The position numbers and the translations under genes were made by a program. A DNA stretch of 64,000 nt from Dudresnaya verticillata (taxonomy: Eukaryota). The notes beneath the pieces are model-generated. The model was not told the origin of the DNA. It was given only the letters and a program-made list of their open reading frames with translations, and did not search any database. Where the stretch lies: contig OZ374559.1 of the NCBI GenBank assembly GCA_977862235.1, positions 124,001 to 188,000 of the forward strand, read 5' to 3'. Of the stretch, positions 1 through 57,102 are shown in pieces; within the stretch, counting starts at the first letter, position 1, and each line of letters opens with the position of its first letter.

Positions 1-2120
1 CAAACCCAAAGATGCCTGCCAACGCAAGAAGCAGTCTTACTGACTGAGGTTGCAAGGTTGTCGTGGAGTGCACCATCATGTCCTTCATCTTGTCTCGATG
101 GCCTCCAATGACGTATCGGGCCTTATACTTGATCTTGCCGTCCAGCGAGGACTTGATCGCGAGTACAAATCTGCCGGGAAGAACATTCGCGTCTCTTGGG
201 ATGTCTTCCTTGAGTATCACCTTGAACGTACCGCGCTGCATGAGGTTGCGGAGTTCTACCTTCTTGGCTTCAGTCATCTCGTAGTGCTTGGCTCGTTCAT
301 CGTTCGGATCAAGCACTTCCGTCATGAATATCCCATGCTCTTCCATCTTCGGGGACTTGAACGGGTTCAGACTTTTGTCGATGTCTGCCATGAAGGTTTG
401 TGCAAGAAGTTCGGGGGTGAAGTATGGTTTCACCTGCGTGACGCTGAAGGGCCGAGCGGGACTTCCTTCGATGTCTCGGATGAACACAAGCTTCTTGGAG
501 TAGTCAACTGATTCTACTTCGAAGGGTCCGAGCCATTCTCCAATGCGGTTGGCAATGATCTTCTCGCGAAATACGAGCACGCGATCACCAGGCTCATAGC
601 TGCGCTCGGAAGCAGGTGGGACAGCGTAGTGAAGTGCTCGTCTGACCTTGAGCTCAGCCATCCGCTTCTTCATCTCCGCACGAGCAGCTGTAGCAATAGA
701 AGCGCGTTCAGCTACCGTGGGTCGAGGTCCGGGCTCTTCAGACAAGGTGGCAATTTGTGGAAATTCTCCGAAGACAAGAGCAGAAGGTACTAGGCCTTCG
801 GGTCCAAGGGTGTCGTTCATTGCCTTCACAGATGAAGCTAGAAGAATCTCCTTGCCTGCATGCGGGTAAGCATGTCGGAGCTTGCGGTATGTCGTTCGCA
901 GCGGCTCATGGTACCTCTCGCACAGTCCAAGACTGGAGTGGGCTTCAATGCCGGTGCGGTTGACTTCAACGTTGTTGACTTGGGCTATGTGGATGAACTG
1001 TTGTCCAAACTGTGAGCCTTGGTCAGTGAGAATGCTGTTCGGACGTCCACAGTAGACGAGAGTCCAGCATGACATCAAGGTTGTCCAGATCTTCTGCGTC
1101 GACACATCAGGGAGGAATCGTGCGGCGCTGAACTTCGTGGCTTCGTCAACGATGTGGAGAACAGGCGCTGATTCAAGTGACATGATGTCAATGAGGATGA
1201 GTTCATTGAATCTTAAGTCTTCGGCACCAAACGATACACGGAAACGATGAGGAGCGTGTTGTATTCGTTGACACGGGTCGGAACGTTTCGCGATGTCTTT
1301 CAGCGTTTCCAGTGTTTGAGGTGTAGCTTCCTCTGGACGTGCTCGCTTAATAAGGTTGTATAGCTTCTGTGCGCTTACATGGAAGAACTGTCGGTGAAGT
1401 CTTCGCAACTGTGGACGCGTGAAGTAGCTGGCTGTCGAGAAGTGCATCTGAGCATACAAGTGGTTTCTTCCAGAGCGGGTCAACGGCACCTGCCATGTTG
1501 AGGTGCACCAGCTTCCCTTCTTGGTCGGTATGTCTCGTACGCTTGATGAGTTGGTTCGAGACAGTGCATGGAGTCAAGGAGTGTTTGTCCAGTACATCCA
1601 TGCCAAGAAGTGCGGGGATATCGGCTTCGACAATGTCCATTTCAACGTCGATGTTGCTTATGCCTGGTGGGGTCAACAGCGGTATGGAAATGCGACCGAG
1701 TGACTCGTACGTGGCGTCGGCAAAGCGAAACCTGTTGCGCGAGGGCATGAGTCTTCGGGAATGTATGCCTGCAGCAGTAAGGATGCGCTGCATCTCTTTG
1801 CGTCCTACGACAGACTTTGGAGCCCCTATGTCCACACAGAAGCCAGCTGGTCTTGTATTACGTATCTCCTTTCCAAGAGAACCAACGTGGATGCATACCA
1901 TGAAGATGTCTGGTGGTTTGATGCTTTGGGATGGGTGGGAGTGCCTGGGGACTGCTTTGCGATGATGCTTCTGCCATCGCTTGTTCGCTCGGCGACAAGG
2001 CTGAGGCATTACATGCTCTTGTCGCCTATCCAAAAATCCTGCGGCATACCAGCCGAGATGTGGTTGGTTACAATCTCCCCTTCCAAGTTCTCGATAGGGT
2101 CTACGAAGTTGGTCTGGATT
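1..2120 (-). mobile_element. Degenerate Ty1/copia LTR retrotransposon (protease-integrase-RT order), running off the window start
   Basis: Minus-strand translation gives protease-like CVDIGAPKSVVG, integrase-like LHIVDEATKF...ILTDQGSQF, then copia RT-like NVLPGRFVLAIK...YKARYVIGGHRD. Frameshifted; no LTR identified; the right boundary is approximate. Confidence 0.8.
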
Positions 2121-2764
2121 CCGGTGTTGGCTAGAGCCGTTGGTGGCCTATTGCTACCTGGGCCATATCGCGATATTCTTTTGCATCGCGCTGAATAAAG
2201 TGCATCTCTCTCTCTCTCTCGCCTTCTCCGCTTTCAAGCGTTGGCGATCAATCGCCGTCGGCTTGCGCTTCAGGTACGTCCTTGGTCCTTGAGTGGACGG
2301 GGCGACCTAGTTAGTGCCCTTCGAATCCGACCCTAAAGGCCCCCATCTCTCTTACTGAATTGCACGATTCTCGGCGCATGTACAACGTGCAGGGGCCCTC
2401 AAATTCATGCGCTCCAGCGGCCACAGGCCCGAAGTGTAGCTTGCGCTTAGGGCTCGCATAAGGCGACGGCGCCGGCCATACGTTTTTTTATCAGAACGTT
2501 GTGGAGGGCCAAGTGAGCCGTCCTTCGGTGATTCTCCTGTTGGGACAAAAGCCGAACAATAGCGCTGCGGCGGGGACAACAAGACGGTCGTTGTGCTACA
2601 ACGTGGAGCTTCGACAGGCCACACGATGTGTTTGGATGGCTAACTTTTCACCGCGCCGCGCTGCATAAATAGAGCCGTGCGGTTGGAGCACCCGCTCCCG
2701 ACACATACCCCAACCATCCCATCTCCAACCGTCTCTACCCGCTTGACCGCCCGCTCCTGCCGAC

Positions 2765-5700
2765 ATGGATGCCACACCGCAGCGCCGTGCCCTTCGCCAA
2801 GCTATCGACGACAATGCCGACGTCCACGCCATGGTTGCACTCGCCTTTGTGTACTGGGGCGCTTCAGATGGAGGGCCTGTTCTACCTTTGCAAGCCGTCG
2901 CCTTGCTCGAGCGAGCGATTGATGAGGGCGACCATGACGAAGCGCGGCATGGCCTTGCACTGTTGCTGAAGGAAGGGGCCGCGGGAGTGCCCAAGGACGA
3001 GCGCCGCGCCGCGGAGCTGGTCGAGCGCGCCAACGCGCGAGATCCGCGCGGGGTGTCGCTGTTCTATCTCGGAGTGCGTCTTCATTTCGGATTGGGCCAT
3101 TTTGTCAAAGACACAAAGCGCGCGGCAGCGCTGTACGAACGAGCCGTTGCAGAGTTTGCGAATGTGGACGCAATGGTCAATTTGGGCGTTCTCCTCGCAG
3201 ACGGCGACGGCGTCGCCAAAGACGCTCCGCGCGCCGCTGCGCTGTACGAGCGCGCCATCGCGGAGGGCGAAGATGTCTTCGCAATGACCGGTTTGGGCCA
3301 ATTGCTGCTGAAGGGCGAAATCGATGTTCCGCGAGACGTTCCGCGCGGCGTCGAACTGCTCGAACGCGCCTGCGACAGCGGTCACGAGAGGGCCCCAATT
3401 TATATGGTTTTGTTGGGCCAAGCGCTTTTGTCCAATCATATCGGAGACGCGCGCGATCCGCCGCGCGCGAAGAGCCTCTTCCAACGCTCAATCGAACGGA
3501 CAGGACTGTTCTTGGTCCTTTTCCCTTCCCTGCTGACAACACCCTTGGGCCTTCCCTAGGCCGTCTACGCTCTTCTGTTGGCAAACAGTGTCAAGCCCGA
3601 CTTAATGATGTAACCACGTTCTTGAATTCTTTCCATGTTACTCCTCATGACTCAAGGTCTCCCGGGTCTGTGCATCATGAGCTTTTTTCTTCTTTTAATG
3701 CCGTGGTTTTGGCCTCTGTGACCCCGTCATCCAACTCTAGTGATGATCTTCGCTGTCGTCTTCGTCTGCAATCTACCTGCACGGCCAGTTCTGCGCGCGC
3801 ATTTGCCGCTGTACCTTCCTCCTTCCACGGTACTCGGGTCGAAGCTGAAGTTTGGATATCAATGATCCAGCTACGACTTGGACTTCCCATTTTCAGTGGA
3901 GATGACCCATGCCCCCGTTGTGTTGATGGTACCGCTTCTGTTCCCTCTCTTCTTGATGTTTATGGGCATCATGCTACGGTCTGCTCTTCTCGTGAGGGCA
4001 CGATTCGCCGTCATGATCATCTTCGGGATCGCTTAAGCGTCTTATTTCAGACTATCGCCCGCCCCCATGGCGTGCGCGTTGAAGTTGAGCATCGTTTCAC
4101 TTATTCGGATGAGCATGGGCCCCGTAGCTCTGTCCCCAACGCTGCCCGAACACGTGCTGAACGCATACGTGACGGGCTTCATGCTGCTTCTGGTGGTCCC
4201 CCACAGCCTGTTGATCCACGTGACCAACTGCGTATGGATATTTTCGTTGATGATCGTGGCTTTGCCCCTCACCCCCATGGATTTGATGTCTCGATCGTCA
4301 GTCCCCATTCTATTCATGGTTCCACTGGTCGCGTTGCTGGCCAAGCCATTGCAGCTCGCGAACGTGTCAAACGCTCTCATTACCGCCGCGTATGCGCTAG
4401 TTTGGATATGGTTCTCCATCCTATGGTTGTAGATGTCTATGGCCGTGTTGGATCTGGCTTTGAAGTTGGCGCCCAACGTATTGCTAATTTCATTGCCAGC
4501 AAGCGCGGGACCTCTCCGTCTACGGAGAAACTTCGCCTCACTACTCGTTTACTCTCTTTAGTTCTCCAATGCGTCGCGGTGAGTGTCAACCGCCGCAAGC
4601 TTGCTCCTCCGCCTCTTTATGGTAGCTCTGAATCCTAAGCCCCCTTAAGGGGCTTCTCTCTTGTTCTTTAATAAAGGTCTCTCTCTCAATCGAACTCCAT
4701 CGCTCCCGCGTCGCACTCTATGAGCTCGCCACATTGCTTGGCCGCGGAGATGTCGGTGTTGCTCGCGATGAGAGCGCAGCAGCCCAACTGCATCAACAAG
4801 CAGCGCATCAACAGGTAACGCCTCTTGAGCTTAAAGTAATCGGCATCCGGTCGCAATACCTTGTCAACCGCATCGGTGACACCAGCACACTTGTTGAAAA
4901 CACCCTCAAGACCGCCATAGCAAAGCCACGGCAGTGCTTTCTTCTTGTTCTCGGCGGTGCGGCACGCGGTAAGACAAGCACGGTAAGGAGCCTGCGCTCC
5001 ATGCCCTTCGTTGCCACCCACCAACCGACACACTTTGTATCGCTGAGTCGCACTCTTGTCGTCCCGGACGGCCCCAAGTTGGACGATGACATTGTCGACC
5101 AGCTCGCCTTCAACAGCGAGGCCTTCCATGCCCTCATGTCACGGTCTGAGATTCAAGAGGTACCCACGCCAACGGAACGACCAACGTCATCTACAGCAAG
5201 TGCATCCGATGCCGGCTCCTTTCGAGCTGGATCGGCGTTTCTCCCAACTGCAACTGATGCATCATCGCGGCCGAGTGAAAAATCCACCGCAAGATTCCGC
5301 CTTAAACTCCGCACTTGGCTCAAGCGAGCTCCTCCGACCAAGAGGACCGTTCCCCAGATTGGAGACACATTGGCAAGCAGCCATACCACTGCTCAACAAC
5401 CACCAGCTCCGCCCAGTATTGCTGTTTCGCAGTCTATAAACTCCCAAGCGTCTCCCATTTGGGAAGCAGCACGGCAAGGGCTCATGAGTTCCGGCTTTCC
5501 TGCCGATAATCGAGCTGCGTTGGTGCAATGCTGGGACCTTGGGGTTCAGGCAGAGTACCTCAGTGTTCCCGCAATCTTCATCCGCCGCGCTTCCATTTTT
5601 GTTTTCGTGTTAGATCTGAAAAGGTTTGCGTCAGAAGTCACCCAAGAGGACGAAGTGTTAGAACTATGCAACTGGATGCAAATGGCACATGCGTCTTCGC

Positions 5701-7649
5701 AAACCCCGAAAAACGTTTGGGTGATCCTGGTGGGAACCAGGAAGGCAGAAGTTGAAAGCCCTGAAGACTTGTTTCAGCAGCTGCGACAAAAACTGCGAAA
5801 GCATCTCGGAAGGGCTGTCTACGATGACTGGGTACGTGAGAAGGGCGATGTCGACAAATGCAAGTGTCGGTGGGTTGCCATCGAGAACAAGAACAGCAGT
5901 GCTGAACAAGACCGTGCCGGGTCAGGCGTTGTGGAACTAGAGAAGAGAATCAAGGAAGCGAGTGAAGACATTCTTGGCGGAAGGGAAGAGGTTCCAGTTC
6001 GGTGGGCTGCCCTCAGGGAAGCCATTTTGTCAGACGCCACTGAAAGCCAAGAAGTCTTTTTGGCAATGGGAGAAGTCCATAGCCATGCTGCCAGACTTCC
6101 CGGATTCTCTAGTGACAAGGAGGAGAGAGAAGCAGACGTTGAGAAATGCGTCCAATTCCAGGGCCAACAATGGCATATTGTCGAAGTTCAGACGGCCGAG
6201 GGATGGTACGTGTTTCCAGATCCGAGCACAATTCTGGACTTTATTCGGCAGGTCACGGGGCCGGCGGCATTTATGCGAGAACGACTGGGTGAAGAAGAAG
6301 CGAAAGAGTTTGAAAAGAAGATACAGACTCTGCGACAGCATGAAGCAGAAAGTTACGAGAACGGGTTGATCCCACGAAAGGGACTGGATGAATTGTGGTG
6401 TAAATACCTACCTCCTGTTCGAGATGTGATGCTTGACATTCTGTGCCGGTTTGGCATTCTAATGCGTTTGCACTCTACAGAGACGGAGGGTGATGAGCGG
6501 AAGGAGCTAGTCGGGATTCCGTCGTTGCTTCCCAAAGGTTGGGAGGGATTCCAGTGCCCTACGAAAGAAGGAGAGTGCGAAATTGTTTTGAGAACCATCT
6601 TTGACGATGCCATTCCCCCTGGCTTGGAGGGCTACTTTGTATCATTCCTTCATCGCACTATCGGAGGAGAGCGAACAAAGCCACCGGAACTTCGCCAAGA
6701 TGCTGTAATTCTTTCTCTGAAGGGGACTTGCCGCATTGTTGTTTGCTTCGTTCCTAAGAAAAGATGGATTGAGTGGACGATCAGGTGCGATGCCGTCTCA
6801 GCAATGAAGGTGGCTCAAGAATGTTTGAAAGCTATGGAAGATTTTTTGACAAGACCTCCGCACGGAAGCAACGCAGCTCGGAATCATTTTCTAGTTACTG
6901 ATTGCCCTTCGAGCATCCAGGGGGGTTGCGGTGGCTCTAAAAGTGTGTTGTTGTCAATACCTCAGACATGGGTTTCGACTGAAGAATGTCAGGCACTCGA
7001 TGAGGCAGAAGGAAAATGCTATTGCAATCAACTGTGGAACTATGGACAACTGAAGTTACATATTCTTGAGGGTGTGTCTGAGGGATCAAGCCACGATCAT
7101 TTTGAACTACGAGACTCAGTAACTCCGTATGATGTCTTTATTAGCCACGCAGGCCCGGAAAAGAGATCCGTTGCCTACCCGCTACGGAATGCATTGAAAG
7201 CAATGGGATTGCGGTGTTTTTTGGATGAAGAGAGTTTGAAGGTGTCGGAACGTACAAACGAAGAGCAAATTGGAGCGGCAATTCGCGGCAGTAAGGCTGC
7301 CGCTTTCATTCTTTCGCCGTCGTTTGTGGCTCGCAAGTGGCCGATGTTGGAGCTGTCAGAATTTCTCGAGCGAAAGCAGGGACCACAGCCACCTGTACTA
7401 TTCCCGCTTTTCTACCAACTCCAGGTGGAAGACTGCAAGAACAAGCAGCTTCCGTTCGACGACCGATTTTGGCGAGAGTTTAAAGAGAATGACTTCTTTG
7501 AACGCGAGTTCGGGAAAGAGTCGAAGGTAATGGACACAGTTGCAGCGGTGACGAAATATGCTGGTGCTCGGAACGATAGAGGAGAATCGGAAAATAAGTT
7601 CGCGAAGAGAGCTGCAGATATGTTGTTCGAGAGTTTTGAAGATACTTAA
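2765..7649 (+). pseudogene. Sel1-repeat / Roc GTPase / COR / TIR protein (~1228 aa when reconstructed), interrupted by a LINE insertion
   Basis: Sel1-like repeats in 2765-3497 (GVPKDERRAAEL, GVAKDAPRAAALYERA). Removing 3498-4695 joins them in frame (SIE-LHRSRVALYELATLLGRG) to ORF 4734-7649, which has P-loop GGAARGKT, WDLGVQ, ILVGTRK, COR-like VPVRW/IPSLLP/IPPGL and TIR YDVFISHAG...WPMLEL. Confidence 0.88.
3498..4684 (+). mobile_element. 5'-truncated non-LTR retrotransposon with restriction-like endonuclease (RLE)
   Basis: ORF 3622-4638 has CPRC...HHATVC zinc motif, RHD, RMDI...GFDVSIV...KRSHY. 3' end is AATAAAGG(TC)n. Perfect 11-bp TSD CTCAATCGAAC at 3487-3497 and 4685-4695. Confidence 0.9.
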
Positions 7650-8634
7650 GTAAATTTCTGTCACATCGCTAAACGTTTCCGTTCGCGTAAGCACCAATTG
7701 GAAGATCGCCAACTTGTACTTTTTCCATGGAGGTTCCAGTGATGGAGAGAATGGAGATACTTGTAACACAAGTGACTTCGGAATTAACTTCCGATACCAT
7801 TTTGCCTTTATTAGCAATACCGACGAGGCTTGCCTATAATTGCAAGGCCTGTGAACATAATCTTACGAAAGGGGGACTATCCTCGTCTGAAATGATGGAA
7901 AATTGCATGGACGGGCTGAAAGTACGCATCATGGTCCTTGAGTCTAGAAAGGGGTTTCATTAATTACACTCGGCTTCCTCTATCTCTCTGACCGAAGTGC
8001 CAGAATATTGGTGCTTGCGTTGGTAGCAGATCATTGCAAACAATGCCCTCGGAATTTATATCCTCGGAAGTTATGACACGTCCCACATACTATACACTAC
8101 CTGCATGTCACATTATTTTTTAATAGAACTTGTTGTTACTACAACTTGTTTATTTAAGTAACAATACTGGTTGTGGGATGTTTTTGTTCTTTTCGAGATT
8201 GGCGTCCAGTCTTATTTGACTTGAAAACTGTAGGCTGTCTGGACGTAGTTGAATAAGAGTTCGGGAAACGGATCCGGTTACTTGGGAAAATGGCAGTCCG
8301 GCGACCATTAATTTACGGGACCCGGGGAGGGATGAGAGGAGAAGAAAAGTTTGAGATTGAAAGCAACCATGAGACAATATTGTGACCCGGATATAACGAA
8401 GCTCTGAAGCACCGGTTTCTATTTCGACCTCGTCAATTCGCATCAAATTTATCACTCAGTGACTATTGTCGAGATCATCTAAAGAGCTGAAGAAGGGCTT
8501 CTGGGCAAGGAAGGAGACAGCGGTTTTGGTTTTACGATCTGCAGAACACAAACCTGTTTGTTCAACGAGTGCAAGTCCGCTCGCTATCTAGATCGCAGGC
8601 GCAGGGCTATCCGAAAAAAAAGTTGGGGATAAAA

Positions 8635-9675
8635 ATGATCGCGTACCTTCACCGAACCATTGGAAGGGAACGGACAAAACCGCCTGAACTTCGTCAAGAT
8701 GCCGTCATCCTGTCACTTGAGGGAGCATGCCGGGTTGTTGTTTGCTTTGTTCCAGAGAAGAGATGGGTGGTGTGGACCATCAGGTCGGAAAGCGATGAAG
8801 CTTTGCAGATTGCACACAAGTGTTTGCAGGGTATGGAAAGATTTTTGAATGGACCGCTGCACGGAAGTAATGCCAATTGGAGTCATCATATGATGACAGA
8901 CTGCCCTTCGGAAATTCGCGGGGGCTGTGGGGGTACCAGTACCGTACGCTTGAAAATCCCTGAGGCTTGGGTAAGAAGTGAGAAGTGTGAGACGTTGGAC
9001 CGAGCAGAAGGATCTTGTTTTCGCAATGAGCAGAGTTGCCAGACTTGGACGTACAAGCAGTTGAAGGTGCACATCCTTGGGAGAGTACTTGGGGGCCCAA
9101 GTCATCGCCCTTTTAGATTGCCAGAACCCGTAATGCTATACGCTGTATTTATCAGCCATGCCGGGGAAGATAAGGAGTCACTTGCATTCCCGCTACGGAA
9201 TGCGTTGGAGAAGAGGGGCCTACGTTGTTTTCTGGATAAAATGTGTCTGAAGGTTTCCCCGCAAAAGATCGAAGAAAGAATCTGGGCAGCAGTCCGGGGC
9301 AGCAAGGCTGGCATCTTCATCCTGTCACCGTCGTTTGTCTCTCGCAAGTGGCCCATGGTGGAGCTGTCAGAATTTCTCAAGCGCAAACAAGGGTCACAGC
9401 GCCTTATGCTGTTCCCGCTATTCTACAAACTCCAATTCAGAGATTGTAGGAACAAACAGCTTCCGTTCGACGATCGATTTTGGCGAGTGTTTAAAGATAA
9501 TCGCTTCTTTGACCGCGCAGAGGTCGGGAATAATTACCCAGTGACGAAGGTAATGGATACACTTTCGGCGCTGACGAAGTATTTTGGTGCTCTGAACGAT
9601 CAAGGCGAGTCGGAAAATCAGTTAGCAGAGAGAGCAGCAGATATGCTGTCTGCGTGTTTAAGAAAAATCCAATAA
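8635..9675 (+). CDS. Truncated paralogue: C-terminal COR part plus TIR domain (346 aa from ATG 8635)
   Basis: From LHRTIGRERTKPPELRQDAVILSL onward it aligns with the C-terminus of ORF 4734-7649. TIR motifs VFISHAG and WPMVEL; reading frame is open. Confidence 0.75.
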   Translation: MIAYLHRTIGRERTKPPELRQDAVILSLEGACRVVVCFVPEKRWVVWTIRSESDEALQIAHKCLQGMERFLNGPLHGSNANWSHHMMTDCPSEIRGGCGGTSTVRLKIPEAWVRSEKCETLDRAEGSCFRNEQSCQTWTYKQLKVHILGRVLGGPSHRPFRLPEPVMLYAVFISHAGEDKESLAFPLRNALEKRGLRCFLDKMCLKVSPQKIEERIWAAVRGSKAGIFILSPSFVSRKWPMVELSEFLKRKQGSQRLMLFPLFYKLQFRDCRNKQLPFDDRFWRVFKDNRFFDRAEVGNNYPVTKVMDTLSALTKYFGALNDQGESENQLAERAADMLSACLRKIQ

Positions 9676-11675: not shown

Positions 11676-11902
11676 GGAGGAGAGAACTTTATTAAAGAAC
11701 AAGAACCGACCTCGCTTCGCACTCACCTTTTTACATCAACCAGCACCCACGACCACCGCCACAGAGAAGATGGATGGCATCCCCCTATCGTTTGTTTCTT
11801 TTCCCTCCTAGTCCCAGTATATTTTGCTGTGGGGGGCAGACCCGCACCCGACACACTAGTAGCTGCTCGTGCACTTGACAGCGTGCCTTCGCCCGGCTGG
11901 CA
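11676..11902 (-). mobile_element. Short TC-tailed retroposed insertion (SINE-like or heavily truncated LINE)
   Basis: Minus-strand 3' end CTTGTTCTTTAATAAAGTTCTCTCC matches the tail of the RLE LINE. Imperfect TSD ACTTTCA(A)CCGA at 11664-11675 and 11903-11913. Confidence 0.5.
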
Positions 11903-15788: not shown

Positions 15789-18700
15789 GGTTATGGGGTT
15801 CTAGTACGCGCAATTCCATCTGCGCTTGTCGTACCGTCTATCGTTTCGTAACAACTCGTCGTTTCGTTTTTTTTCGTCCGTCTTCCCACAACATGGATTC
15901 TGAAAGTGGGACAGACCTCTCTCGTTATCGTATTGAGAAGCTTACATCCCAGAACTACTACATATGGTCTCGTAAAATCGAGCTAGTACTTCGTGCCAAG
16001 GGGCTTTGGGGAATCGTGTCAGGCACCGAGAAGAAGCCGGAAGGTGCCTCCGTCGACGAAGGTGAAACGTTTCAGCGTCGCCATGATGTCGCTCTTACAA
16101 ACTTACTACTCACTGTGGACGACTCAATTAGCGCCCGTGTAATTGGCTTACGTGACGCTAAGCAAGTTTGGGACACTCTTGAGTCTATGTTTCAAGTTAT
16201 TTCGGAGGCATCAATTGATGCCTATCTGACGCAGTACCAGACAGTTACCATGTTGCCGACGGAGAATATTATGAGCTACGTAAATCGGTTGACTAACCTG
16301 GAGCATAAGTTAACATCAGTTGGACATTCAATATCTGAGCGAGATCGCAAAAGGGCCTTATTACGAGGACTTAGAGAGGACTATCATGCTGTGAAGAAAG
16401 TAATGATGATCTCAGGCACAAAGTATGAAGAATGTATCTCACAACTCGTCCTTGAGGAAATCAACATTTTGCAAGATGACGTTAGCACGGAACATAGACA
16501 GTTCTACTGCATTGGCAGCAACACAAAACAGAAAGAAGAAATGCCACTACTGTGGACGACTCGGTCATATCAAGCCCGACTGTTTTGATAATCCAGAGAG
16601 CCCTCGCTATCGACCTTGTGATGCAAATGGAAAACCACAAGGCATCTTCCGCGACCCGCGCTCGAAACAGAAGAATACAGAAACAGTCAATTATGCTAAC
16701 ACCGCTACTAGTGGGTCAAATTACATCACGTTCATCTCAAAATGTGCAACCTCTAACCCTACTGTCCTTGCCTCGCCACCTTATGAATGGTATATTGATT
16801 CTGGTTGTTCCTCGCATATGACGAACAACTCAGAGCACTTCATTACCCAGAATATCAGCCAAAGCCCATCATCTGTAATGGTAGGGAACGGCAACCGATC
16901 TCCAGTTGTTGCCATTGGTGACTTGTTGTGTGTCGCGAGAGTCGGCGACCGTGATGTCAACATCCAAATGACCAATGTCCTACATGTTCTAGGACTCATG
17001 TGCAACCTGATCTCAGTTAGTCGTCTTCGCAAGCAGGGACATCGCGTTATCTTCGAGACAGATACCAACGGCCAAGTAATCTGTACTGTATCAGGATCCC
17101 GTAGCAATGATGTTATTCTTCAAGGCCTCGAACACGAGGACGGACTGTATCGAGTCACCATGAATCCAACAAAGGTGGAAGCTGACACTCACACTGCTGC
17201 CATTTCCGTCGAAGCCAAACAGAATCTATGGCATGAACGGCTGGGGCACGTTAGTCCTGAAACGATTCAGCGTTCCCTTCCACTAGTCAATGGTCTTGAC
17301 ATATCTCAATGCAAGTTTCCATCAAAGTGCGATAGTTGTCTCAAGGGAAAATCGACTCGAAAAGTACGTTTTGAGGCCACAGATGAAGAACAGAAGTCTA
17401 CAAAACCGTTACATCTTGTCCACTCTGATTTAGTTGGCCCCTCTCGTCGCCGATCCATCAAGGGTGCACGGCATTTCGTGACTCTACTCGATGACCACAG
17501 TTCCTTGTCTCTCGTACATTTCATCTCCGGGAAGGGAGATGCCAGCAAAGCACTGAAAGAGATGCTAGTAGAATTGGAAACTGTATTCGGCTCTAAGGTC
17601 AAACGAATAATAGCCCGTCGTGTAACTGCAGACGCTTACGACCCCGAATTTATACGTGTCAAGAGGATGCGTAGTGATAATGGCGGGGAATTCCTCTCCA
17701 ACAAGTTCAAGAAATGGCTCTCTAATCGAGGTACAGTTCACGAATTAACCTCTTCGTACTCCCCGGAGTCTAGCGGAAAGGCCGAACGACTCAACCGTAC
17801 CTTGCTAGACATGGCTCGAACAATGCTCATGGCTGTTTCAGACATTCCTGACCATGAATCACTGTGGGCTGAAGCTGTAAACACAGCTAACTACCTTCGA
17901 AACCGGCTGTATACCCGTTCACGCAATTCGTCCAACCAGACCCCGTACGAAGTTATTATGGGCAAGAAGCCAAATCTAGCCCACATCCGCAAGTTTGGCT
18001 GCCGAGCGTATGTCCATATTCCCAAAGCAACCAGGAAAAGCAAATTCGAACCACGGGCCAAGGTAGGCCTCCTGGTTGGTTATGAAAGAGGCAACAGTTA
18101 CAAAGTCTACTTCGTTACCGATGGCAAAGTTGTTTCTTCCCGAGATTTTAGCTGCGATGAGACCTACACAGGTCTTGACGCTATGTCAGAGCCAGAAGAG
18201 GAAACCAAACATAGCTTTATGGAACTACCTGACCCGGAGGATGACGACAATTCCCTCCAGGTCTCGCGGACGACTCCGATGACGAAGAAGGAGAACTCCA
18301 GTCCGATCACGAAGACGAAGAGGATAGGGACAGAAGCTCCCCTAGTTCCGTTAATACTGAAGAACTTACCCACTTCCCACAATTGCGTCGCTGTAATCGT
18401 GTGTCGACAACTCCAGCGCGATACGGTGACATCGCATCAATTGCACTTAACGTACGACTGGGAAATGAATCAGCAGAGGTTCCGACCACATACAAAGAGG
18501 CCGTAGGCGGCCCTGAAAAGGATCAATGGGTTCAGGCTATGAATGAAGAGATTGCTGAGATCGAGCGTAAGAGTACATGGATGCTTGTTCCTCTCCCGAC
18601 GGATGCCAAGGCCGTCCAGAACAGGTGGGTTTATTTCAAGAAGCGAGACGTTGACCACCGGGTATCTCGATATCGAGCACGCCTCGTAGCAAAAGGATTT

Positions 18701-20053
18701 TCACAGCAGTATGGAATTGACTATGAAGAAACATTTGCACCTGTAGCCAAATACTCCACGCTCCGTTTCCTTCTCTCCTTGGTAGCGGATGAGGACTTAC
18801 AGATAATGCAACTGGATGTGAAGGCTGCGTTTCTCAACGGCGACCTTGACGAGGTCATCTACATGAAACAACCTGAGGGTTTCGTGAACAATGAAAAACG
18901 TGATTTTGTCTACCGCCTCCTGAAAGCGCTCTACGGTCTGAAGCAAGCCTCGCGTGTCTGGCATCGAACAATCGATACACTTCTTAATACACTGGGTTTC
19001 TTTCAGTCTGAGTCTGACGCTAGCCTCTACATCCTTGTCGTCGACTCTATCCGTTTGTTCGTTTTAGTCTACGTAGATGATATGCTGCTCGTCAGTGCCA
19101 GCCTCTCATTAATGCGCAAGATAACTACCTCTATTGCCGACAAGGTAGATATCCGCGTCGAGAAGAGTGTGACGAAGTTTTTAGGTATCATCATTCATCG
19201 TAACCGTGATCTACGTTGCATTCAGGTATCCAGTCCACACATGATCCGCGAGATGGTTTCTAAGTTCGGATTAAAGCATGCCAAGTCTACAACTACTCCA
19301 TTGCCACCTGGCACAATTCTGGAAATCCCAAACGTCACCGATGAGGGGGAATGGGAACCAGCATCGGTACCGTTCCGCGAATTGGTTGGAGGTTCGTGCA
19401 CCTTGCCAACACTACCCGGCCAGACATCGCGTTTGCAACTTCATATCTCTCCCGTTTCATGCAAAAGCCTTCTAAAGTACACTGGAATGCCGCCAAGTAT
19501 GTCCTTCGTTACCTGAAAGGTACAGAAGAGAATGGTATCTCCTTTGGATCAAGGAGCAAAGATTGCGTAGGGTTGCATGGATTTACTGATTCTGACTTTG
19601 CCGGAGATCGCATTGAGAGGAAATGAACAAGTGGATTTGTTTACCTGAGTTGCGGTGGGGCTATTTCATGGCGTAGCAAGAAATAAAATATAGTAGCACA
19701 GTCGAGTGTCGAATATGTTGCGACTTCATTTGCCGTTCGTGAGGCTTTATGGCTTCAACGACTGAAAAAGGACTTTTGCGCAGATGCCGACAAGACTGTC
19801 ACATTATACACCGACAATCAAGGTTCGATGGCGCTCGCAAAGAACAGTGTCTCTAACGAACGCACGAAACACATCGATGTCAAGTACCATTTCATTCGTG
19901 ACCACATCCAGAAAGCGTCTATCGAACTAAAGTACATCTCAACCGAGAATATGGTGGCAGACGTTATGACCAAGGACTTGCAGAAGTTCAAACATACAAA
20001 GTTCACAAGTATGATGGGCATCTCATTCGACCGCTGTTAAGTTCGAGGGGGAA

Positions 20054-20323: not shown

Positions 20324-20381
20324 GTTTTACCGTCTAGCTAGGATTTACTATTTTCATTTAGAGGGACTGTTGCCTTTGGAT

Positions 20382-20507
20382 AGAGAGAGGAGACCTTTAT
20401 TAAAGAACAAGAGAGAATCCCCTTAAGGGGGCTTAGGGTGCAGATCTACCATAACGAGGCGGAGGAGCAAGCTTGCGGCGGTTGACACTCACCGCGACGC
20501 ATTGAGA
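20382..20507 (-). mobile_element. 3' fragment of the same RLE LINE family as 3498-4684
   Basis: Reverse complement closely matches ~4563-4687 (end of ORF, CCCCTTAAGGGG palindrome, AATAAAGG TC tail). Confidence 0.88.
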
Positions 20508-27989: not shown

Positions 27990-29126
27990 TTACGTTTCAT
28001 GCGCATAAAGAGGCTCTACACCACATGAAACCCCCGCATAATATCCGAGGCATGAACCGGTGCCACAAAGCGGCAGCTGTCGAATCATGCGACTGTGGAA
28101 ACGGTATCGGGGCAGGGAAGGCCGGCTCCGCTCCCGAAAAACCAGAAAGACCCGGAGCGTGCGATCGAAATAAAGATGAGCCATGGCGTCACTATTTGGG
28201 CCCCAGCCGAAACGAGCAAGCCGCACCGCGAGCGGGATGCCCAACAGTACTTGTTCGGTGTGGGCACCGATACGTAACGAATGTGACGTAAATTTCCCAT
28301 GCAGGGGCGGCTGGAGTGCGAGATGTTGTAAGCAACGCTGGAGGGCATCATTCAGTAATGTCCGTGCCGTCTCTGCGCTCTCCCCAGGAAGGGCGAAGAA
28401 GCGACTTATAGGACGTGTTCCACGAACCGCGTCCCAACGGCTCCAGAGGTCAATCGGGGACTGGAGTGACGGTAAGCGGTCGTACCGTACCAGTGCCACC
28501 TTGCTCGCCCGTTGGCCCTTTACCATTGTCAGGCGAGCAATCACATGACTCTCCTCCAGGTCCACGTTGACGGACAACTGTGAATTCACAGAGCTCTCTC
28601 GAAGATCATTAAAACAAAACGACCATACCACCATGGCACAATCACGGATAACTCTGATAGTTGGGCTTGTCATCCCTAATGCCCATATCTGATGAACGAA
28701 CTTGGCACGTATTCCACACCGGACACTTGCAGCTGGGTATGTGTCTTCTTCCCATCGGGAGTACGCCCGCAGTACATGCGAGACGAACGGAAAGGACGGG
28801 ACGTGTTCACCCGTCAGCAGACGTTGCATCTGTCTGACGGCACTGAGGTACTGAGGCACCGATGCGGACCCAACGCGACGGGTCCCTCGTTCTCGCGCTA
28901 GGCACAGCCATCCAATATATGCGACCATGTGTCCCTCGGTGACTGGGAGAATTGTTCGGTTCTCCTCAGTACAGAACTGGACCCATGTCTCCCATTGGCT
29001 GTTCCTAGATTGCGCAGTACGTGGGCTCCATGCAAAAGAGGCCACCAGCTGTAGCGAACGCTGAGCCCCTTCACTGGTACCCGCGATAGCCTGTACGCGT
29101 GATGAACCGGCTGCAGCAAGTCTCAT
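27990..29126 (-). CDS. Tyrosine recombinase
   Basis: Catalytic pattern LRES ... HSLRIG ... FGW ... HLYF; the 3' end probably runs on past the true stop. Confidence 0.85.
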   Translation of the reverse strand: MRLAAAGSSRVQAIAGTSEGAQRSLQLVASFAWSPRTAQSRNSQWETWVQFCTEENRTILPVTEGHMVAYIGWLCLARERGTRRVGSASVPQYLSAVRQMQRLLTGEHVPSFPFVSHVLRAYSRWEEDTYPAASVRCGIRAKFVHQIWALGMTSPTIRVIRDCAMVVWSFCFNDLRESSVNSQLSVNVDLEESHVIARLTMVKGQRASKVALVRYDRLPSLQSPIDLWSRWDAVRGTRPISRFFALPGESAETARTLLNDALQRCLQHLALQPPLHGKFTSHSLRIGAHTEQVLLGIPLAVRLARFGWGPNSDAMAHLYFDRTLRVFLVFRERSRPSLPRYRFHSRMIRQLPLCGTGSCLGYYAGVSCGVEPLYAHET

Positions 29127-29143
29127 TCAAGCAGTGGACCGAG

Positions 29144-30706
29144 TTAAAGGTTGATCTCCAAAGCCAGGAGACGCCACTGCGGGTTCAGTGTGCGTTGTGC
29201 CTCCCATACGTCCGTGGTGTTGAGTGGGAGCCGTCGTACCCGGCCGGCCAGACGCATCGAAGCGTGGTACCAAGGCTGGCGTGGCCATTCTGGTATCAGG
29301 AGGACTGCAGGGGCCTCAGTGCGCTGTAACTTGGGTACTTTCGCCTGTATCAGGTCCACTGGCGGTGATAACAGCCGTACTTGGTCCGTCGCGTGCCAAG
29401 GCACGTCCAGTTCCCGAAAGGCTTGACGGCATCGGAAGACAGGATGCTCTCCCAACGGCCGGTAACGAAACGATTGGACTGGTGCTGCCATTCCATCCCG
29501 CACGGAACGCAGCAGCTGCTTGCGGATCTGGAAGTCGCCGGCCGGGAACCGTCGCGAGAGGGCATCTGCGAAACGGTTTGCGGCCGAAGGAATCCACTCG
29601 CTGCGGATGTTCAGCCCCAGTTGATCCAGGACCACCTTCAAACGTCGCAGCTTGCGCATCATGGGACGACTGGAGGAAGCAAAGGCATTCGCGACATGGA
29701 CTACAGCCTGATTGTCGACGTGTAGCAGCAGGTTCTTATTTTCTGGAGCGGTCAACTTGCTCCCGAGCTTGCCGGCGAGGGGCTTTCGGATTGCCTTCAA
29801 CTCCCGCAGAGAGATGCAGGAAGCTCGGTCTCGCCAGCTCCATACTCCCTGTGCGCGCCATTTTCCATCGATTCCAGGAAGAAAGCTGCGGAAATTTAGG
29901 GTCCCTCCATATCTAAAGTCGGCGGCGTCGGTATGCATCGCGGCATCGGGCTGTACCGGGTGCATGCAGCGTCCCTGCAGTTCGGCTGTGGACAACTCCT
30001 TCCACTTCAACAAGTCCCGTATGCCCTGGTGACTGATCCGACGCCTCCCACGTTGATCCATGCGTGCTTTGGACAGTTCCCAGTATAGTGATCGGGTGTA
30101 GAAGCGCGCCCATGGCATAGCCAGCGTAAGCGACACGCATACACCACAGAAGTGACGCAGGGCTCTCTCTGAGACCCATCGGCGACCGACGCGTACTTCC
30201 TTGAGGAGTCGGCGCGCTAAAAAGCGTACTTTCTCGACCTTCCGCAACTGGACGAAGAACTTCATCTGCTTCGTGTCCACGACGACCCCAAGGTGACTGA
30301 CTACCTGCGCACCTTGCCATTCTCCCTTCGTCGCGTGACGGGAGAGCCCCAAGTTCCTCATCAGCTTGTCTATCGCTCTCGTAGCAACCTGGCAGTCCTC
30401 TACCGAAGCTACGACACCAAGAGGGGAGGGCGAGATCAAGAAATCGTCGAGGTAGGCGAGGACGCGGAGTCCCCGTCTCCGTAACTCCGTTACGAACGGC
30501 ACCATGAAGCGGGTGAACCACATTGGTGAGCGCTCCCATCCAAAGGGTAATGCGATGCAGCGGAAGTAACGCCGGTGGTACTTGAACAGGAACCAGTCCC
30601 GCATCCAAGGGGCTAAACGAAGGTGTCTGTATCCCTTCTCGATATCCATCGAGAGCAGATAATCTCCCTGTTGTAGCCCACTTGCGAACTCCGCCACCGA
30701 CTCCAT
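29144..30706 (-). CDS. Reverse transcriptase / RNase H of the YR element (N-terminus frameshifted)
   Basis: DIEKGY, LPFG, YLDD; TDAA, ELKAI, VDN, NRFADALSR. Confidence 0.9.
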   Translation of the reverse strand: MESVAEFASGLQQGDYLLSMDIEKGYRHLRLAPWMRDWFLFKYHRRYFRCIALPFGWERSPMWFTRFMVPFVTELRRRGLRVLAYLDDFLISPSPLGVVASVEDCQVATRAIDKLMRNLGLSRHATKGEWQGAQVVSHLGVVVDTKQMKFFVQLRKVEKVRFLARRLLKEVRVGRRWVSERALRHFCGVCVSLTLAMPWARFYTRSLYWELSKARMDQRGRRRISHQGIRDLLKWKELSTAELQGRCMHPVQPDAAMHTDAADFRYGGTLNFRSFLPGIDGKWRAQGVWSWRDRASCISLRELKAIRKPLAGKLGSKLTAPENKNLLLHVDNQAVVHVANAFASSSRPMMRKLRRLKVVLDQLGLNIRSEWIPSAANRFADALSRRFPAGDFQIRKQLLRSVRDGMAAPVQSFRYRPLGEHPVFRCRQAFRELDVPWHATDQVRLLSPPVDLIQAKVPKLQRTEAPAVLLIPEWPRQPWYHASMRLAGRVRRLPLNTTDVWEAQRTLNPQWRLLALEINL

Positions 30707-31100
30707 TCTGACGGAGGCCTTGTCCCAGTGTTTGGACTGCTTGGAAACGTTCAGTACGAAACGTCCCTTTTTCCATTCTCGGTCTCCTGCCAGACGGTGA
30801 AGGCCGAAGAAGGGATCGCTCCCTGAACCACCGCCTTGTCCACGTGCTCCCTGCCGACCTCCTCGTAAATACCCGTCCTGCAGCCTTCCTCCAAGTCTGC
30901 AAATGCAAACTGGAGATCCTCTTCGGTCTGGGGAAGATTCCCGAGCTCATCGCCTTGACCAGGAATGAACGGGCGAGCAGGCAAGTCGCTCACGCCGAAC
31001 TTGATCGCTCGGTAGAGGAATTCCGAGCAACCGAGATCGCGCCATGCTTCAGATCGCTTCTGAGTCTTTCTCCAAAGCGGGCGCGGATAGCCAATGTCGA

Positions 31101-50066: not shown

Positions 50067-51900
50067 GTCACAATGTACCAGGACACCGACAATCCGCCAG
50101 AGTCTTTGCCCTTGATTCCGTCGCATCCCGAGTATGGGCACGGTCGTTGCTGGATTGATATCTCGAAGGCTATTATGGCATCCACCGAGCTCATCTATAT
50201 TGCAGGTTGGGCCGTGTGGCCGGAGCTTGTTATGGTCCGAACTGACTTTCCCGGTGACGAGTGGAAAGGTCTTACGCTTGGCGAGATGCTCAAACAAAAG
50301 GCTGAAGAAGGCGTTAAGGTCCTTGTTATGGTATGGGACGAACTGGCGAGCGGCCGCTTTTCAAAGGGCATGATGGACACCCACGACGAGGAGGTGGTTG
50401 CCTAGTTTAAGAAGTCCAAGGTCAAGGCCATCAAGGTGGGACGACAAAACGTAGAGGACGGCCCGCTTGCCGATCTCAACGACAGTCTTCTTTTCACGCA
50501 TCATCAGAAGACAGTCATTGTTACTAAGCGCGACCCGGACAGCGGTAAGAACCGCGTCGAAGCCTGGCTGGGCGGACTTGACCTGACCGACGGGCGCTAT
50601 GACAATCATAAACACAGCTTGTTCAGAACTCTGGACGGTCTCCATGCGCCTCCAGACTTCTGGCAGGCTTGTGCCATTGGTGTGGACGCAGATTCCGGCC
50701 CAAGGGAGCCGTGGCATGATATCCACAGTCACGTGAACGGCACGGCTGCTTGGGATGTGATGACCAATTTTGAGGGTCGGTGGTCTCGCCAGGCTCCAGA
50801 CAGTGCCAAGTCTGCACTGCACCCTCACCCTCCGGAAGACTTTTTGCAGCCCGCTGATGAGGATGGCATTCGAGACGGGGACTGGAATGTGCAGATCTTG
50901 CTCAGCATTAACGAGGCCTCGACCGCCTTGAATGCTGATCGTCCGGGACTCACCGTCCGAAGAAATGCTGGAATTGACCAGAGTATTCATCACGGATACG
51001 TTCATCAGATCAGAGCCGCAAAGCATTTCATTTACATTGAGAATCAATACTTCTTGGGATCAAGCCACTTGTGGACCTCTGGGCAGCGGGGTGGGTTCGC
51101 ACCCCACCTCATTGCAATTGAGATTGCAGAGAAGATTTGTGCAAAGATTCGAGCGAATGAACGTTTTGCTGTCTATGTCAACGTCCCCTTGTATTCGGAG
51201 GGAGCTCCGGACTCGGGTCCAGTACAGGAAATTCTTTCGCATCAACGCAAAACGCTCGAGTTGATCACCTCTCGGATTGCGAAGACAACGGCGGAGACTG
51301 GGAGCGAGACCACAATTGGCGATTGATTCAACACGTTCTGCCTTGTCAATAGGGAATCCGAAGAGGGTGGAAAAGGGAACGGTGGCTCTTCAGCTATAGA
51401 AAAAACGCTTTCGACAACTCGGTGCTCTATGATATACATTCATAGCAAGTTTGCTATCTTTGATGATACTGTGGCTATTACTGGGTCTGCGAATATTAAC
51501 TCTCGCTCAATGGATGGATCACGTGATACAGAAATAGCCTTGATGGGGTGGCAACCAGAGCATGTTGCGACTGGATCTCTGGGTTACAGCGACGTCGGCA
51601 TGCAGGATCCAAGTGTACCCCAAGGTGATGTGGCTGCCTTCCGGAAAAGTGTGTGGACGGAGCATTTTGCAGAATATGTGCCGGAAACGGAAGATCCCAG
51701 TTCTTTGGAATGCGTGAAGCGCGTGAGACAGCTTGCAGGGCGGAACTAGAATCACTTTGCAGACGATGGTGGATTGGCAGCAGATATGCCTCACGGCCAC
51801 CTTGCTTTGTATCCGCATGAGTTTGACGAGACCACTGGAGAAGTGTCGTCGAGGAGAACTTCAATGCCTGACTTTCCCAACGCGTTGGTCAAGGGTAAAG
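50067..51900 (+). pseudogene. PLD: Plant-type phospholipase D catalytic region, 5'-truncated, with stops
   Basis: IYIAGW, THDEE, THHQK, GGLDLTDGRYD, PREPWHDIH, IYIENQYF, IYIHSK...DD, GSANIN.RSMDGSRDTEIA; stops at 50403, 51324 and 51747. Confidence 0.92.
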
Positions 51901-56600: not shown

Positions 56601-57102
56601 CCGAGCGCTCAAGGCGTCGCAGATCACCGAACTGGAAAATCTTAGGGATCACGTCTATAGAGATCGAAACGAACCATTTCACTGGGACTTGGGTCACGCC
56701 CCGGAGACGAATGGGAAGCTGCGAAGGGACAGTAGACAGCATAGAGACCCCGAAATGCTTTCGGAGATACCAGAAGAGGAGCAACTACCCGCACAGGACC
56801 TAACCTACAGCCACAACAGAATGGTGGCCGTCAATTATGTTCAGGCAACCGAGCAATGTCCTTTTTACGTGGCAAAAGTGATGGAAGTTGTGAAGGGGGA
56901 CGATGGAAAGGTTTCGAAATTGTTGTTGCGGTGGTATGAAGCCAAGCACACCGGTAATGTTTTCAGTGCAGCTTACAAACCTTCGTTCTACAAAACCAGG
57001 CGCGGGGTCGCAAAGGAATGGGAAGAAGACGTCACCGTCGATTGCGTACTTGTGGAGTTTGAGTCGCTCACTCGAAATAACCGTCTGCCGGTTGCAGTAT
57101 AG
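53653..57102 (+). CDS. Transposase of the giant element (RNase H-like DDD-type core) with accessory N- and C-terminal domains
   Basis: CC-x3-C and FTKCSEC Cys motifs; LIIDGADQ, QLDNCTRENKN, FLPIGHTHSDIDQAFS; C-terminal PFYVAKV...LLRWY; located next to the right TIR. Confidence 0.85.
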   Translation: MAQASSGQVSKAANVPVQNDDDFGDELLPGTKPGARVMLTLNGEHVATATLLRPHDFREGSVDPSGRFSTYLHGRNLGPQQRDGEVWVVVHLVRCLHNCNSYENPFQYKTGSTPCPETLSRMQTGKHAWDLFQIEDLVTIYNTERRKSSGATVPGVEKRAVADANPPTPPLLRVRKPDPHPKQQHGAEEMAAVNSPSTPPPEKGNEEEEVTKRLQYTPVRRPPMRERPQKPPKNNVPDALPVSLAPVSLEPTTTPVEERGPCVGVNDRVDADLKQDSARAVRSIPSRGKGASDEENCITPQPCPAHNVRRTPESSSGFSSGAPEPDPDATPALAASTNTEGDVERTPGADGSEIEHGEEQSDAATLDLVSDAEVEGGSDGILEDEDTGSDQEIEDLTKDAYYVPSATISRRRTAAYEAERVPQTPGVAEDETNGSRKRRYRFYARQRKKLRVGDTALQKRRNAALEKLDEEDWGSKECCMRKQCFKRVSIVYMKAEIRKLLRMDAHDRRNYLHGLLQRPGWNYYFDGKPVCYTFLETAFGFSRDLQYSVKQFGGSRPMEGENAVPYQPPSEGRDKILSYLNRLAEITASCMPDADEKHLPYFDKAAVYENFLLDQERLYPGKDPPRLNYFYHVWKQHRSDIKVRKIQRFTKCSECEEFRARLARAGTNRRLAEPFLLHRKEHYKLVTKERVYYRENTEKATLYPSEYCSLIIDGADQKAFGVPKFVVSTKATRGHAIATKVVGALEHGSLKHLSLFVMTGEFETGANHMIETVHRLLTVKHNHGTLQPTLLLQLDNCTRENKNKYMLSYLECLVAWGVLHEVQVSFLPIGHTHSDIDQAFSCTSKRVRSKDMPTMSCLLRELSMSYTPRPSVARLLQVANFSGLCDKYACIGKTEAFSHYRFFRITRQRGKGMGRKARFRTRCLVKIQCEDEWKPLVTEARGNSLKQEGFILFTPALVKTPETIARCPPDMKEVNDRIRCTEVRALKASQITELENLRDHVYRDRNEPFHWDLGHAPETNGKLRRDSRQHRDPEMLSEIPEEEQLPAQDLTYSHNRMVAVNYVQATEQCPFYVAKVMEVVKGDDGKVSKLLLRWYEAKHTGNVFSAAYKPSFYKTRRGVAKEWEEDVTVDCVLVEFESLTRNNRLPVAV

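What the first reader, a model, noticed from the sequence alone, without database searches (positions are those of the whole stretch)
2765..7649. Sel1-Roc-COR-TIR: an unusual immune-receptor-like architecture hidden by an insertion
Seen: the two ORFs fuse into one ~1228-aa frame with Sel1 repeats, a Roc-type GTPase, COR and a C-terminal TIR that keeps the Glu in WPMLEL. Known: ROCO proteins dimerise via COR and usually have LRR-type sensors; TIR domains with this Glu can be NAD+ hydrolases activated by self-association. Inference: a sensor-switch-effector receptor that uses Sel1 repeats and a GTPase in place of LRR and NB-ARC. The G3 motif WDLGVQ is atypical.
Basis: partly seen in the sequence, partly recalled or inferred. 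Interest (0 to 1): 0.75.

Follow-up and report, generated by a model that had tools for sequence, protein, structure and literature searches.

The report
Transposon-broken algal ROCO-TIR immune gene
A gene that joins helical Sel1 repeats, a predicted LRRK2-type GTPase switch and a TIR domain is split by a likely retrotransposon insertion; intact relatives occur in the red seaweed Chondrus, where this layout was already listed, and they likely act as immune receptors that cleave NAD+, which is untested.

Summary
A 1198-bp insertion with an exact 11-bp target duplication splits one 1228-codon frame. Pfam does not see COR here; an AlphaFold model (pLDDT 81) matches Roc-COR of C. tepidum Roco and LRRK2. 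The insertion is likely a 5'-truncated non-LTR retroelement. Intact Sel1-Roc-COR-TIR proteins exist (4 of 18 scanned), including a Chondrus crispus protein, so neither refutation test is met. The architecture is not new: TPR-ROCO-TIR in C. crispus is in print (PMC11378527), and bacterial repeat-Roc-COR-TIR proteins were predicted as counter-invader systems (PMC8195603). This copy is probably dead or dying: besides the insertion, 4 of 8 conserved switch II positions are changed, including the G3 glycine. The sensor-switch-NADase mechanism is plausible for the family but untested. Verdict: a broken new member of a known, uncharacterised kind.

The parts
2765..3497 (+). 5' part of the gene: start codon and Sel1 units 1-6 (codons 1-244)
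   Evidence: Pfam Sel1 E 7e-30; six units before the break by an HMM built from P0009 units
3487..3497 (+). Target-site duplication, left copy (11 bp)
   Evidence: Exact match to 4685-4695
3498..4695 (+). 1198-bp insertion: likely 5'-truncated non-LTR retroelement (3498-4684) plus the right copy of the duplication
   Evidence: Frame open 3499-4638; CCHC-like knuckle and nuclease-like motifs (family meaning recalled); AATAAA and CT-rich tail; 3' end repeated at 20504-20376, 94% over 129 bp; nearest named Atlas cluster zf-RVT at 0.88, a lead only
4685..4695 (+). Target-site duplication, right copy
4710..4814 (+). Sel1 unit 7, stranded downstream of the insertion
   Evidence: Pfam Sel1 E 0.0038
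4920..5978 (+). Roc GTPase domain: P-loop 4953-4979, G3 5532-5549 (Gly to Val at 5544), G4 5730-5747 (no Asp), disordered insert about 5169-5438
   Evidence: Pfam Roc above cut-off; motif alignment; pLDDT under 50 at model residues 158-247; small-GTPase fold Z about 19
5979..6887 (+). COR domain (COR-A and COR-B; the boundaries are approximate)
   Evidence: Foldseek: RocCOR tandem 3dpu_A E 5.1e-14, COR domain 3dpt_A E 5.6e-9, TM 0.63 by target; LRRK2 7lht_A Z 21.8, 445 aligned, rmsd 3.9; no Pfam COR hit on this protein
6903..7025 (+). Four-cysteine linker, predicted zinc ribbon, between COR and TIR
   Evidence: Cys at 6903, 6927, 7017, 7023; 0 of 4 conserved columns changed in the window, and 0 changed in each of 13 homologues tested; zinc binding inferred
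7122..7649 (+). C-terminal TIR domain with Trp (7338) and Glu (7350), and the stop codon
   Evidence: Pfam TIR_2 60.7 bits; AbTir alignment E 3.3e-11; plant TIR 7xoz_B Z 19.2, 164 aligned, rmsd 2.4
8632..9675 (+). Partial tandem paralogue: COR-B, four-Cys linker and TIR (Glu at 9361); open frame, ATG at 8635, 346 codons
   Evidence: 69% nucleotide identity; 65% amino-acid identity, dN/dS 0.19 over 329 codons; no Sel1, Roc or COR-A remnant upstream by family HMM
20376..20504 (-). Second, short copy of the 3' end of the inserted element
   Evidence: 94% over 129 bp

Best explanation
This is one Sel1-Roc-COR-TIR gene split by a 1198-bp insertion that is likely a recent retroelement copy, so this copy likely makes no full-length protein, while its intact relatives likely work as intracellular immune receptors with a GTPase switch and a predicted NAD+-cleaving output. 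Shown: the frame, the break, the domain order, intact relatives, the retained TIR Trp and Glu, and the changed switch II. Inferred for intact members: the Sel1 array binds an invader molecule or a guarded host protein; this shifts Roc-COR from the GTP-bound monomer towards the dimer, as proposed for Roco proteins; COR contacts bring the C-terminal TIRs together; the TIRs cleave NAD+, probably to a cyclic ADPR isomer, and trigger defence or cell death. Inferred for this copy: translation would stop at 3559 inside the insertion, leaving a 264-residue Sel1-only product; the switch II changes suggest the GTPase was already decaying. Odds: about 0.9 for the broken-gene part, about 0.55 for the immune mechanism.
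For: Frame, duplication and junction. Roc-COR and TIR folds. Intact Sel1-Roc-TIR proteins: 4 of 18 scanned (P0001, P0009, P0011, P0012), the best 37% identical over 1243 columns; P0012 clusters with C. crispus XP_005712860.1. The same core carries other N-termini (ankyrin P0014; TIR P0018, P0161; KIX-like P0031) or lacks the TIR (P0016, P0019), and Sel1 unit counts run from 2 to 15 in 10 proteins: modular turnover as in immune receptors. All 12 rows with a Pfam TIR keep the Glu. AbTir E208A is inactive, W204 is needed for cyclisation and self-association raises activity (bioRxiv 2022.05.07.491051, passages). Roco monomer-dimer cycle (PMC6337361, passages and section 11). Purifying selection on COR-B and TIR between the two window copies, dN/dS 0.19. 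Switch II: 4 of 8 conserved columns changed against 17 of 112 overall, P 0.018, post hoc.
Against: No function was measured for any member. The Sel1 region is no more divergent than COR against P0009 (37% against 35-36%), so there is no sign of a hypervariable sensor at this distance. Overall decay is not raised: the window departs at 17 of 109 conserved columns, homologues at 7 to 33 of 76 to 112, so the switch II changes could be an older pseudo-GTPase state. Only 5 of 17 homologue rows keep the G4 Asp, so GTP specificity is uncertain for the family, though G4-G5 vary among Roco proteins. Roco proteins also serve non-immune roles. The element's class rests on motifs and layout: Pfam found nothing and the protein search found no relative.
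Confidence: 0.6

Rival explanations
1. The family is a developmental or stress signalling scaffold, like Dictyostelium Roco proteins or LRRK2, with the TIR acting as a docking domain rather than an enzyme.
For: The closest folds are LRRK1, LRRK2 and CtRoco. No hypervariability of the Sel1 region was seen. Some Sel1-Roc members have no TIR.
Against: All 12 Pfam-TIR rows keep the Glu; the best sequence matches are enzymatic bacterial and plant TIRs (E 3e-11 to 2e-4), with Toll-like receptor TIRs only at E 0.2 or worse. N-terminal modules and repeat numbers turn over.
Confidence: 0.2
2. The locus still works: the insertion is spliced out, or it is one allele of a polymorphism, and the protein is a pseudo-GTPase version of the receptor.
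For: Both pieces are free of stops and frameshifts over 244 and 984 codons; TIR and the four Cys are intact; 5 GT-AG pairs near the junctions would leave an open frame.
Against: The donors of those 5 pairs read GTTCTT or GTCCTT, unlike the usual GTRAG donor (recalled). The element carries an AATAAA signal in the sense direction. The conserved His after G3 is changed to Pro.
Confidence: 0.12
3. The break made new, shorter genes: a Sel1-only decoy (264 residues) and sensorless COR-TIR products from the downstream piece and from the 346-codon paralogue at 8635, acting as TIR adaptors or amplifiers.
For: The paralogue is an open frame with its own ATG, four Cys and the Glu and shows dN/dS 0.19. 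The downstream piece has in-frame ATGs at 5001, 5136 and 5484.
Against: dN/dS covers the whole time since duplication and may predate truncation; the paralogue begins inside COR-B; ATGs after 5001 lose the P-loop.
Confidence: 0.08

Closest known systems
TPR-ROCO-TIR proteins of Chondrus crispus (Teng et al. 2024, PMC11378527; passages read), e.g. XP_005712860.1 'Sel1-repeat containing protein'
   Same: Helical-repeat N-terminus, Roc-COR, C-terminal TIR; XP_005712860.1 (P0159) has Pfam Sel1, Roc, weak COR-A and TIR and is 31% identical over 1190 columns.
   Different: The paper says TPR, not Sel1, names no accession in the passages seen, and gives no mechanism; that its proteins are these is my inference. 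The window copy is interrupted and has a changed switch II.
Prokaryotic AP-GTPase (Roc)-COR counter-invader proteins (Kaur et al. 2021, PMC8195603; passages read)
   Same: Repeat sensor, Roc-COR and a variable C-terminal effector that includes TIR; predicted immune role.
   Different: Bacterial, with LRR sensors in the text; here eukaryotic with Sel1 repeats. No close prokaryotic relative was found (close relatives only).
C. tepidum Roco and human LRRK1/LRRK2
   Same: Roc-COR fold: 3dpu_A E 5.1e-14; 7lht_A Z 21.8 over LRRK2 1328-1853.
   Different: About 15% identity; LRR rather than Sel1; kinase or no effector rather than TIR; a 90-residue disordered insert in Roc here.
Plant TIR-NLRs and bacterial AbTir
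   Same: TIR fold (Z about 19 to RPPT, RUN1, RPP1, L6) with the catalytic Glu and the cyclisation Trp.
   Different: TIR is C-terminal, the switch is a Ras-like GTPase and not NB-ARC. Not an NLR.
Non-LTR retrotransposons with a C-terminal restriction-like endonuclease (CRE/R2 type; recalled)
   Same: 5' truncation, target duplication, simple-repeat tail, CCHC-like knuckle followed by nuclease-like motifs.
   Different: No reverse transcriptase in the fragment; no database relative found, so the clade is not assigned.

Membership tests
ROCO proteins | Roc domain (Ras-like GTPase fold) | tested here: met
   Pfam Roc 30.2 bits, cut-off 27; family profile hits LRRK2 Roc at E 6e-8; GTPase fold
ROCO proteins | COR domain directly after Roc | tested here: met
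   Foldseek 3dpu_A and 3dpt_A; VIA-align over the whole LRRK2 Roc-COR; Pfam COR absent on this protein, COR-A on 8 of 50 aligned sequences
ROCO proteins | Intact P-loop (G1) | tested here: met
   GGAARGKTS, as in homologues
ROCO proteins (active GTPase) | DxxG switch II motif (G3) | tested here: not met
   Val in place of Gly in this copy; 16 of 17 homologue rows have Gly
ROCO proteins (active GTPase) | Guanine-specificity Asp of G4 | tested here: inconclusive
   Absent here and in 12 of 17 homologue rows; G4-G5 are variable in Roco proteins (PMC6337361)
ROCO proteins | GTP binding, hydrolysis and COR-mediated dimer cycle | not testable with these tools
   Needs biochemistry
Enzymatic TIR domains | TIR fold with catalytic Glu | tested here: met
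   Glu aligned with the AbTir catalytic Glu
Enzymatic TIR domains | NAD+ cleavage on self-association | not testable with these tools
   Needs an assay
Sel1-like repeat proteins | Tandem 36-38-residue helical repeats | tested here: met
   Pfam Sel1 102.8 bits; 7 units
NLR (STAND) receptors | NB-ARC or NACHT ATPase | tested here: not met
   No NB-ARC or NACHT hit; the core is Roc-COR. AAA_16 at E 0.009 reflects the P-loop only
Immune receptors under diversifying selection | Positive selection or shuffling in the sensor repeats | tested here: inconclusive
   Unit number varies 2 to 15, but Sel1 identity is like that of COR; no close DNA copies for a codon test
Non-LTR retrotransposon (RLE type) | Target duplication, 5' truncation, 3' tail | tested here: met
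Non-LTR retrotransposon (RLE type) | Homology to RT-RLE proteins | tested here: inconclusive
   No hit in Pfam, PDB, protein or metagenome searches; Atlas clusters at 0.97 are unnamed eukaryotic proteins, zf-RVT at 0.88

The most novel reading that the evidence does not exclude
Red seaweeds have an expanded family of GTPase-switched counterparts of NLRs: one Roc-COR-zinc-ribbon core with exchangeable Sel1, ankyrin or TIR N-termini that drives a plant-like TIR enzyme making cyclic ADPR signals. It would be the first eukaryotic case in which a Roco dimer cycle gates a TIR NADase, and most members may have relaxed guanine specificity.
Probability: 0.4. Interest if true: 0.7.

Novelty: new member of a known kind. 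Interest (0 to 1): 0.38.

Why it matters
Almost nothing is known mechanistically about intracellular immunity in red algae, and how the Roco nucleotide cycle controls an output domain is still debated for LRRK2 (PMC6337361, passages). An intact Sel1-Roc-COR-TIR protein would give a simple enzymatic read-out (NAD+ cleavage) for the Roco switch and a testable candidate receptor in seaweed. This particular copy matters little: it is broken, and serves mainly as a record of birth-and-death turnover in a transposon-rich region.

Tried and rejected
No whole genome is held, so paralogues outside the window could not be counted. No sequencing run was listed for 2600-7800; this says nothing on expression. 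The single-sequence fold was useless (pLDDT 37.7); the alignment-based fold was used. The word-indexed protein search with the whole 983 residues found nothing; the C-terminal region found 8 proteins, one of them full-architecture. Scans of metagenome and prokaryotic genome contigs found no relative of the gene (480 and 393 stretches examined) or of the element (155 stretches); these reach close relatives only. The Atlas search for the Roc-COR-TIR part did not complete, so distant bacterial relatives and the origin of the family were not tested. The Chondrus genome paper (Collen et al. 2013, recalled) is not held and may already describe these proteins. The supplement text of PMC11378527 held none of 5 terms; its figures could not be seen and may name the Chondrus proteins. 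Nine literature searches listed no paper whose title or abstract start points to an experiment on an algal ROCO-TIR; only listings were seen for most. Rejected: chance fusion of two ORFs; NLR membership; WDLGVQ as a family motif; general decay of the whole frame. The tree places the window row in a supported set of 6 rows with P0009, P0011, P0017 and the Chondrus P0010 cluster; the Sel1-TIR label needs 4 changes against a shuffled mean of 5.3 (78 of 500 as low), so no order of events is claimed.
Full report
Observation. The two ORFs lie at 2765-3559 and, without a proper start, 4698-7649. An exact 11-bp direct repeat sits at 3487-3497 and 4685-4695; removing the 1198 bases 3498-4695 gives one frame of 1228 codons with a single stop. 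Only 4 of 5000 random pairs of 60-bp windows shared an 11-mer. The junction falls between Sel1 units 6 and 7 and aligns with intact homologues without a gap in the window's row. The fusion is real.

Setting. The window is eukaryotic and dominated by mobile elements: Copia-type, Gypsy-type and LINE-type reverse transcriptases and integrases were found in 5 of 14 long ORFs scanned and in the ORF at 2-1489. Of 30 homologue clusters looked up, 3 carry a name and all 3 are Chondrus crispus. A red alga is therefore the likely source; this is inference.

The insertion. One frame is open from 3499 to 4638, from the first bases of the insertion, followed by AATAAA and a CT-rich tail that runs into the target duplication. 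Its last 129 bases recur at 20504-20376 (94%) and 25 bases at 11704-11680. The protein has a CxxC...H...C knuckle and downstream R-x-D, GFDV and ExxKxxHY motifs, which I recall as the C-terminus of non-LTR elements with a restriction-like endonuclease. Pfam, PDB, the protein collection and metagenome contigs gave no named relative; the Atlas gave unnamed eukaryotic clusters at 0.97 and zf-RVT at 0.88. A 5'-truncated retroelement copy is likely, and the perfect duplication and open frames say it is recent. Translation from 2765 would stop at 3559. Five GT-AG pairs could restore a frame, but with poor donors.

Domains. Pfam finds Sel1, Roc and TIR above their cut-offs and no COR. An AlphaFold model of the 983-residue 3' piece, built on a 50-sequence alignment, has mean pLDDT 81. 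Foldseek ranks the C. tepidum RocCOR tandem first (E 5.1e-14) and finds the isolated COR domain (E 5.6e-9). VIA-align superposes model residues 73-783 on LRRK2 1328-1853 at Z 21.8, rmsd 3.9, 445 aligned, and residues 810-981 on plant TIRs at Z about 19. Between COR and TIR lie four cysteines that are unchanged in the window and in the homologues that span them; a zinc ribbon is likely. I looked for it after earlier scan notes described such a ribbon in bacterial Roc-COR-TIR proteins.

The family. A full HMMER search gave 25 proteins at E<=1e-30. Of 18 top hits scanned, 4 have Sel1, Roc and TIR in one chain (P0001, P0009, P0011, P0012; Roc is just under the cut-off in the first two). P0009 is 37% identical over 1243 columns. 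P0012 clusters with C. crispus XP_005712860.1. Other members carry ankyrin repeats, an N-terminal TIR or a KIX-like domain, or lack the TIR. Sel1 unit counts run from 2 to 15 among 10 proteins (a rough count). P0023 and P0013 cover adjacent parts of the query and both have a longest contig of 6234 bases, which hints at another split copy. In the window a second copy, COR-B to TIR only, lies 1 kb downstream, 65% identical, with dN/dS 0.19 over 329 codons (synonymous sites are near saturation in the COR-B part).

Catalytic motifs. The P-loop is normal. Switch II is not: Gly528, Ala535 and His536 of the family are Val, Val and Pro here, against 16, 15 and 15 of 17 homologue rows. Switch II is described as the most conserved region of Roco proteins (PMC6337361, passage). 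Four of 8 conserved switch II columns differ, against 17 of 112 overall (P 0.018, a post hoc test with four near-duplicate rows dropped). Against this, the frame as a whole is not more decayed than its homologues, and P0017 and P0025 also depart in switch II. The G4 Asp is missing here and in 12 of 17 rows. The TIR keeps the Glu and Trp that match AbTir E208 and W204; E208A is inactive and W204 is needed for ADPR cyclisation (bioRxiv 2022.05.07.491051, passages).

Mechanism. For intact members I favour a sensor-switch-effector receptor. The Sel1 array would bind a ligand; Roc-COR would move from the GTP-bound monomer to the dimer proposed for Roco proteins (PMC6337361, section 11); the TIRs would then self-associate and cleave NAD+, probably to a cyclic ADPR isomer. 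Every one of these steps is inferred. Weak points: a dimer may not be enough for a TIR active site, the sensor shows no extra divergence, and guanine specificity is uncertain. This copy is most likely a pseudogene, possibly one whose GTPase was decaying before the insertion.

Comparison and novelty. Teng et al. 2024 list TPR-ROCO-TIR for C. crispus, count five ROCOs there, and treat algal ROCOs as candidate immune receptors (PMC11378527, passages). Sel1 repeats are TPR-like and hit TPR models, so this is very probably the same architecture. Kaur et al. 2021 predicted bacterial LRR-Roc-COR proteins with TIR among at least 24 effectors as counter-invader systems (PMC8195603, passages). A figure legend on Trichoplax ROCO proteins lists TPR and TIR among their domains (PMC4104024, passage). 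Sel1 proteins are already counted among potential pathogen receptors in a red seaweed (PMC12115072, table). Chondrus TIRs of TIR-NBARC-WD40 proteins fall outside the conserved land-plant TIR groups (bioRxiv 2021.11.29.470438, passages). The finding is a ROCO by Roc and COR, not an NLR, and fails the G3 test for an active GTPase. What this work adds is the Sel1 assignment, structural support for COR, the four-Cys linker, the range of N-termini and the conserved TIR catalytic residues.

Verdict. Observation confirmed; interpretation partly supported; new member of a known but untested kind; this copy is broken. Interest 0.38.

Noticed in passing
window 8632-9675 (+): Truncated tandem paralogue (COR-B, four Cys, TIR) with an open 346-codon frame from an ATG at 8635; the 1 kb upstream matches nothing else in the window.
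   Followed up: partly
window 20376-20504 (-) and 11680-11704 (-): Two more, very short 3' ends of the same inserted element, so the family has been active locally.
   Followed up: partly
window 40970-43476 (+): Two overlapping ORFs (584 and 260 aa); the second hits the N6/N4 DNA methylase family (E 2e-8) and the first begins with a ParB-like GMHRL motif (recalled; no Pfam hit). A bacterial-type methyltransferase module in a eukaryotic, transposon-rich region, followed at 53653-57102 by a DUF7869 protein (E 1e-45).
   Followed up: no
window 27990-30950 (-): Reverse transcriptase ORF followed by a tyrosine-recombinase-like ORF (HSLRIG motif, recalled; no Pfam hit): likely a DIRS-type element.
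   Followed up: no
window 44853-49009 (-): LINE-type element with a 365-aa ORF1 and a 1020-aa endonuclease-reverse transcriptase ORF2.
   Followed up: no
window 50436-51326 (+): Fragment resembling phospholipase D (by eye, recalled; no Pfam hit at E<=0.001).
   Followed up: no
window 2-2033 (-) and 16425-19516 (+): LTR-retrotransposon ORFs (integrase, RVT_2, protease) just upstream of the gene and 7 kb downstream.
   Followed up: no
proteins P0010 / P0158 and P0021 / P0161: Two annotated Chondrus proteins (XP_005710386.1, XP_005719309.1) are shorter at the N-terminus than their cluster mates, so the public gene models probably lack the repeat or P-loop region.
   Followed up: partly
homologue alignment, G4 motif (window 5730-5747): 12 of 17 homologue rows lack the G4 Asp although P-loop and G3 are intact; nucleotide specificity of the family is an open question.
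   Followed up: partly
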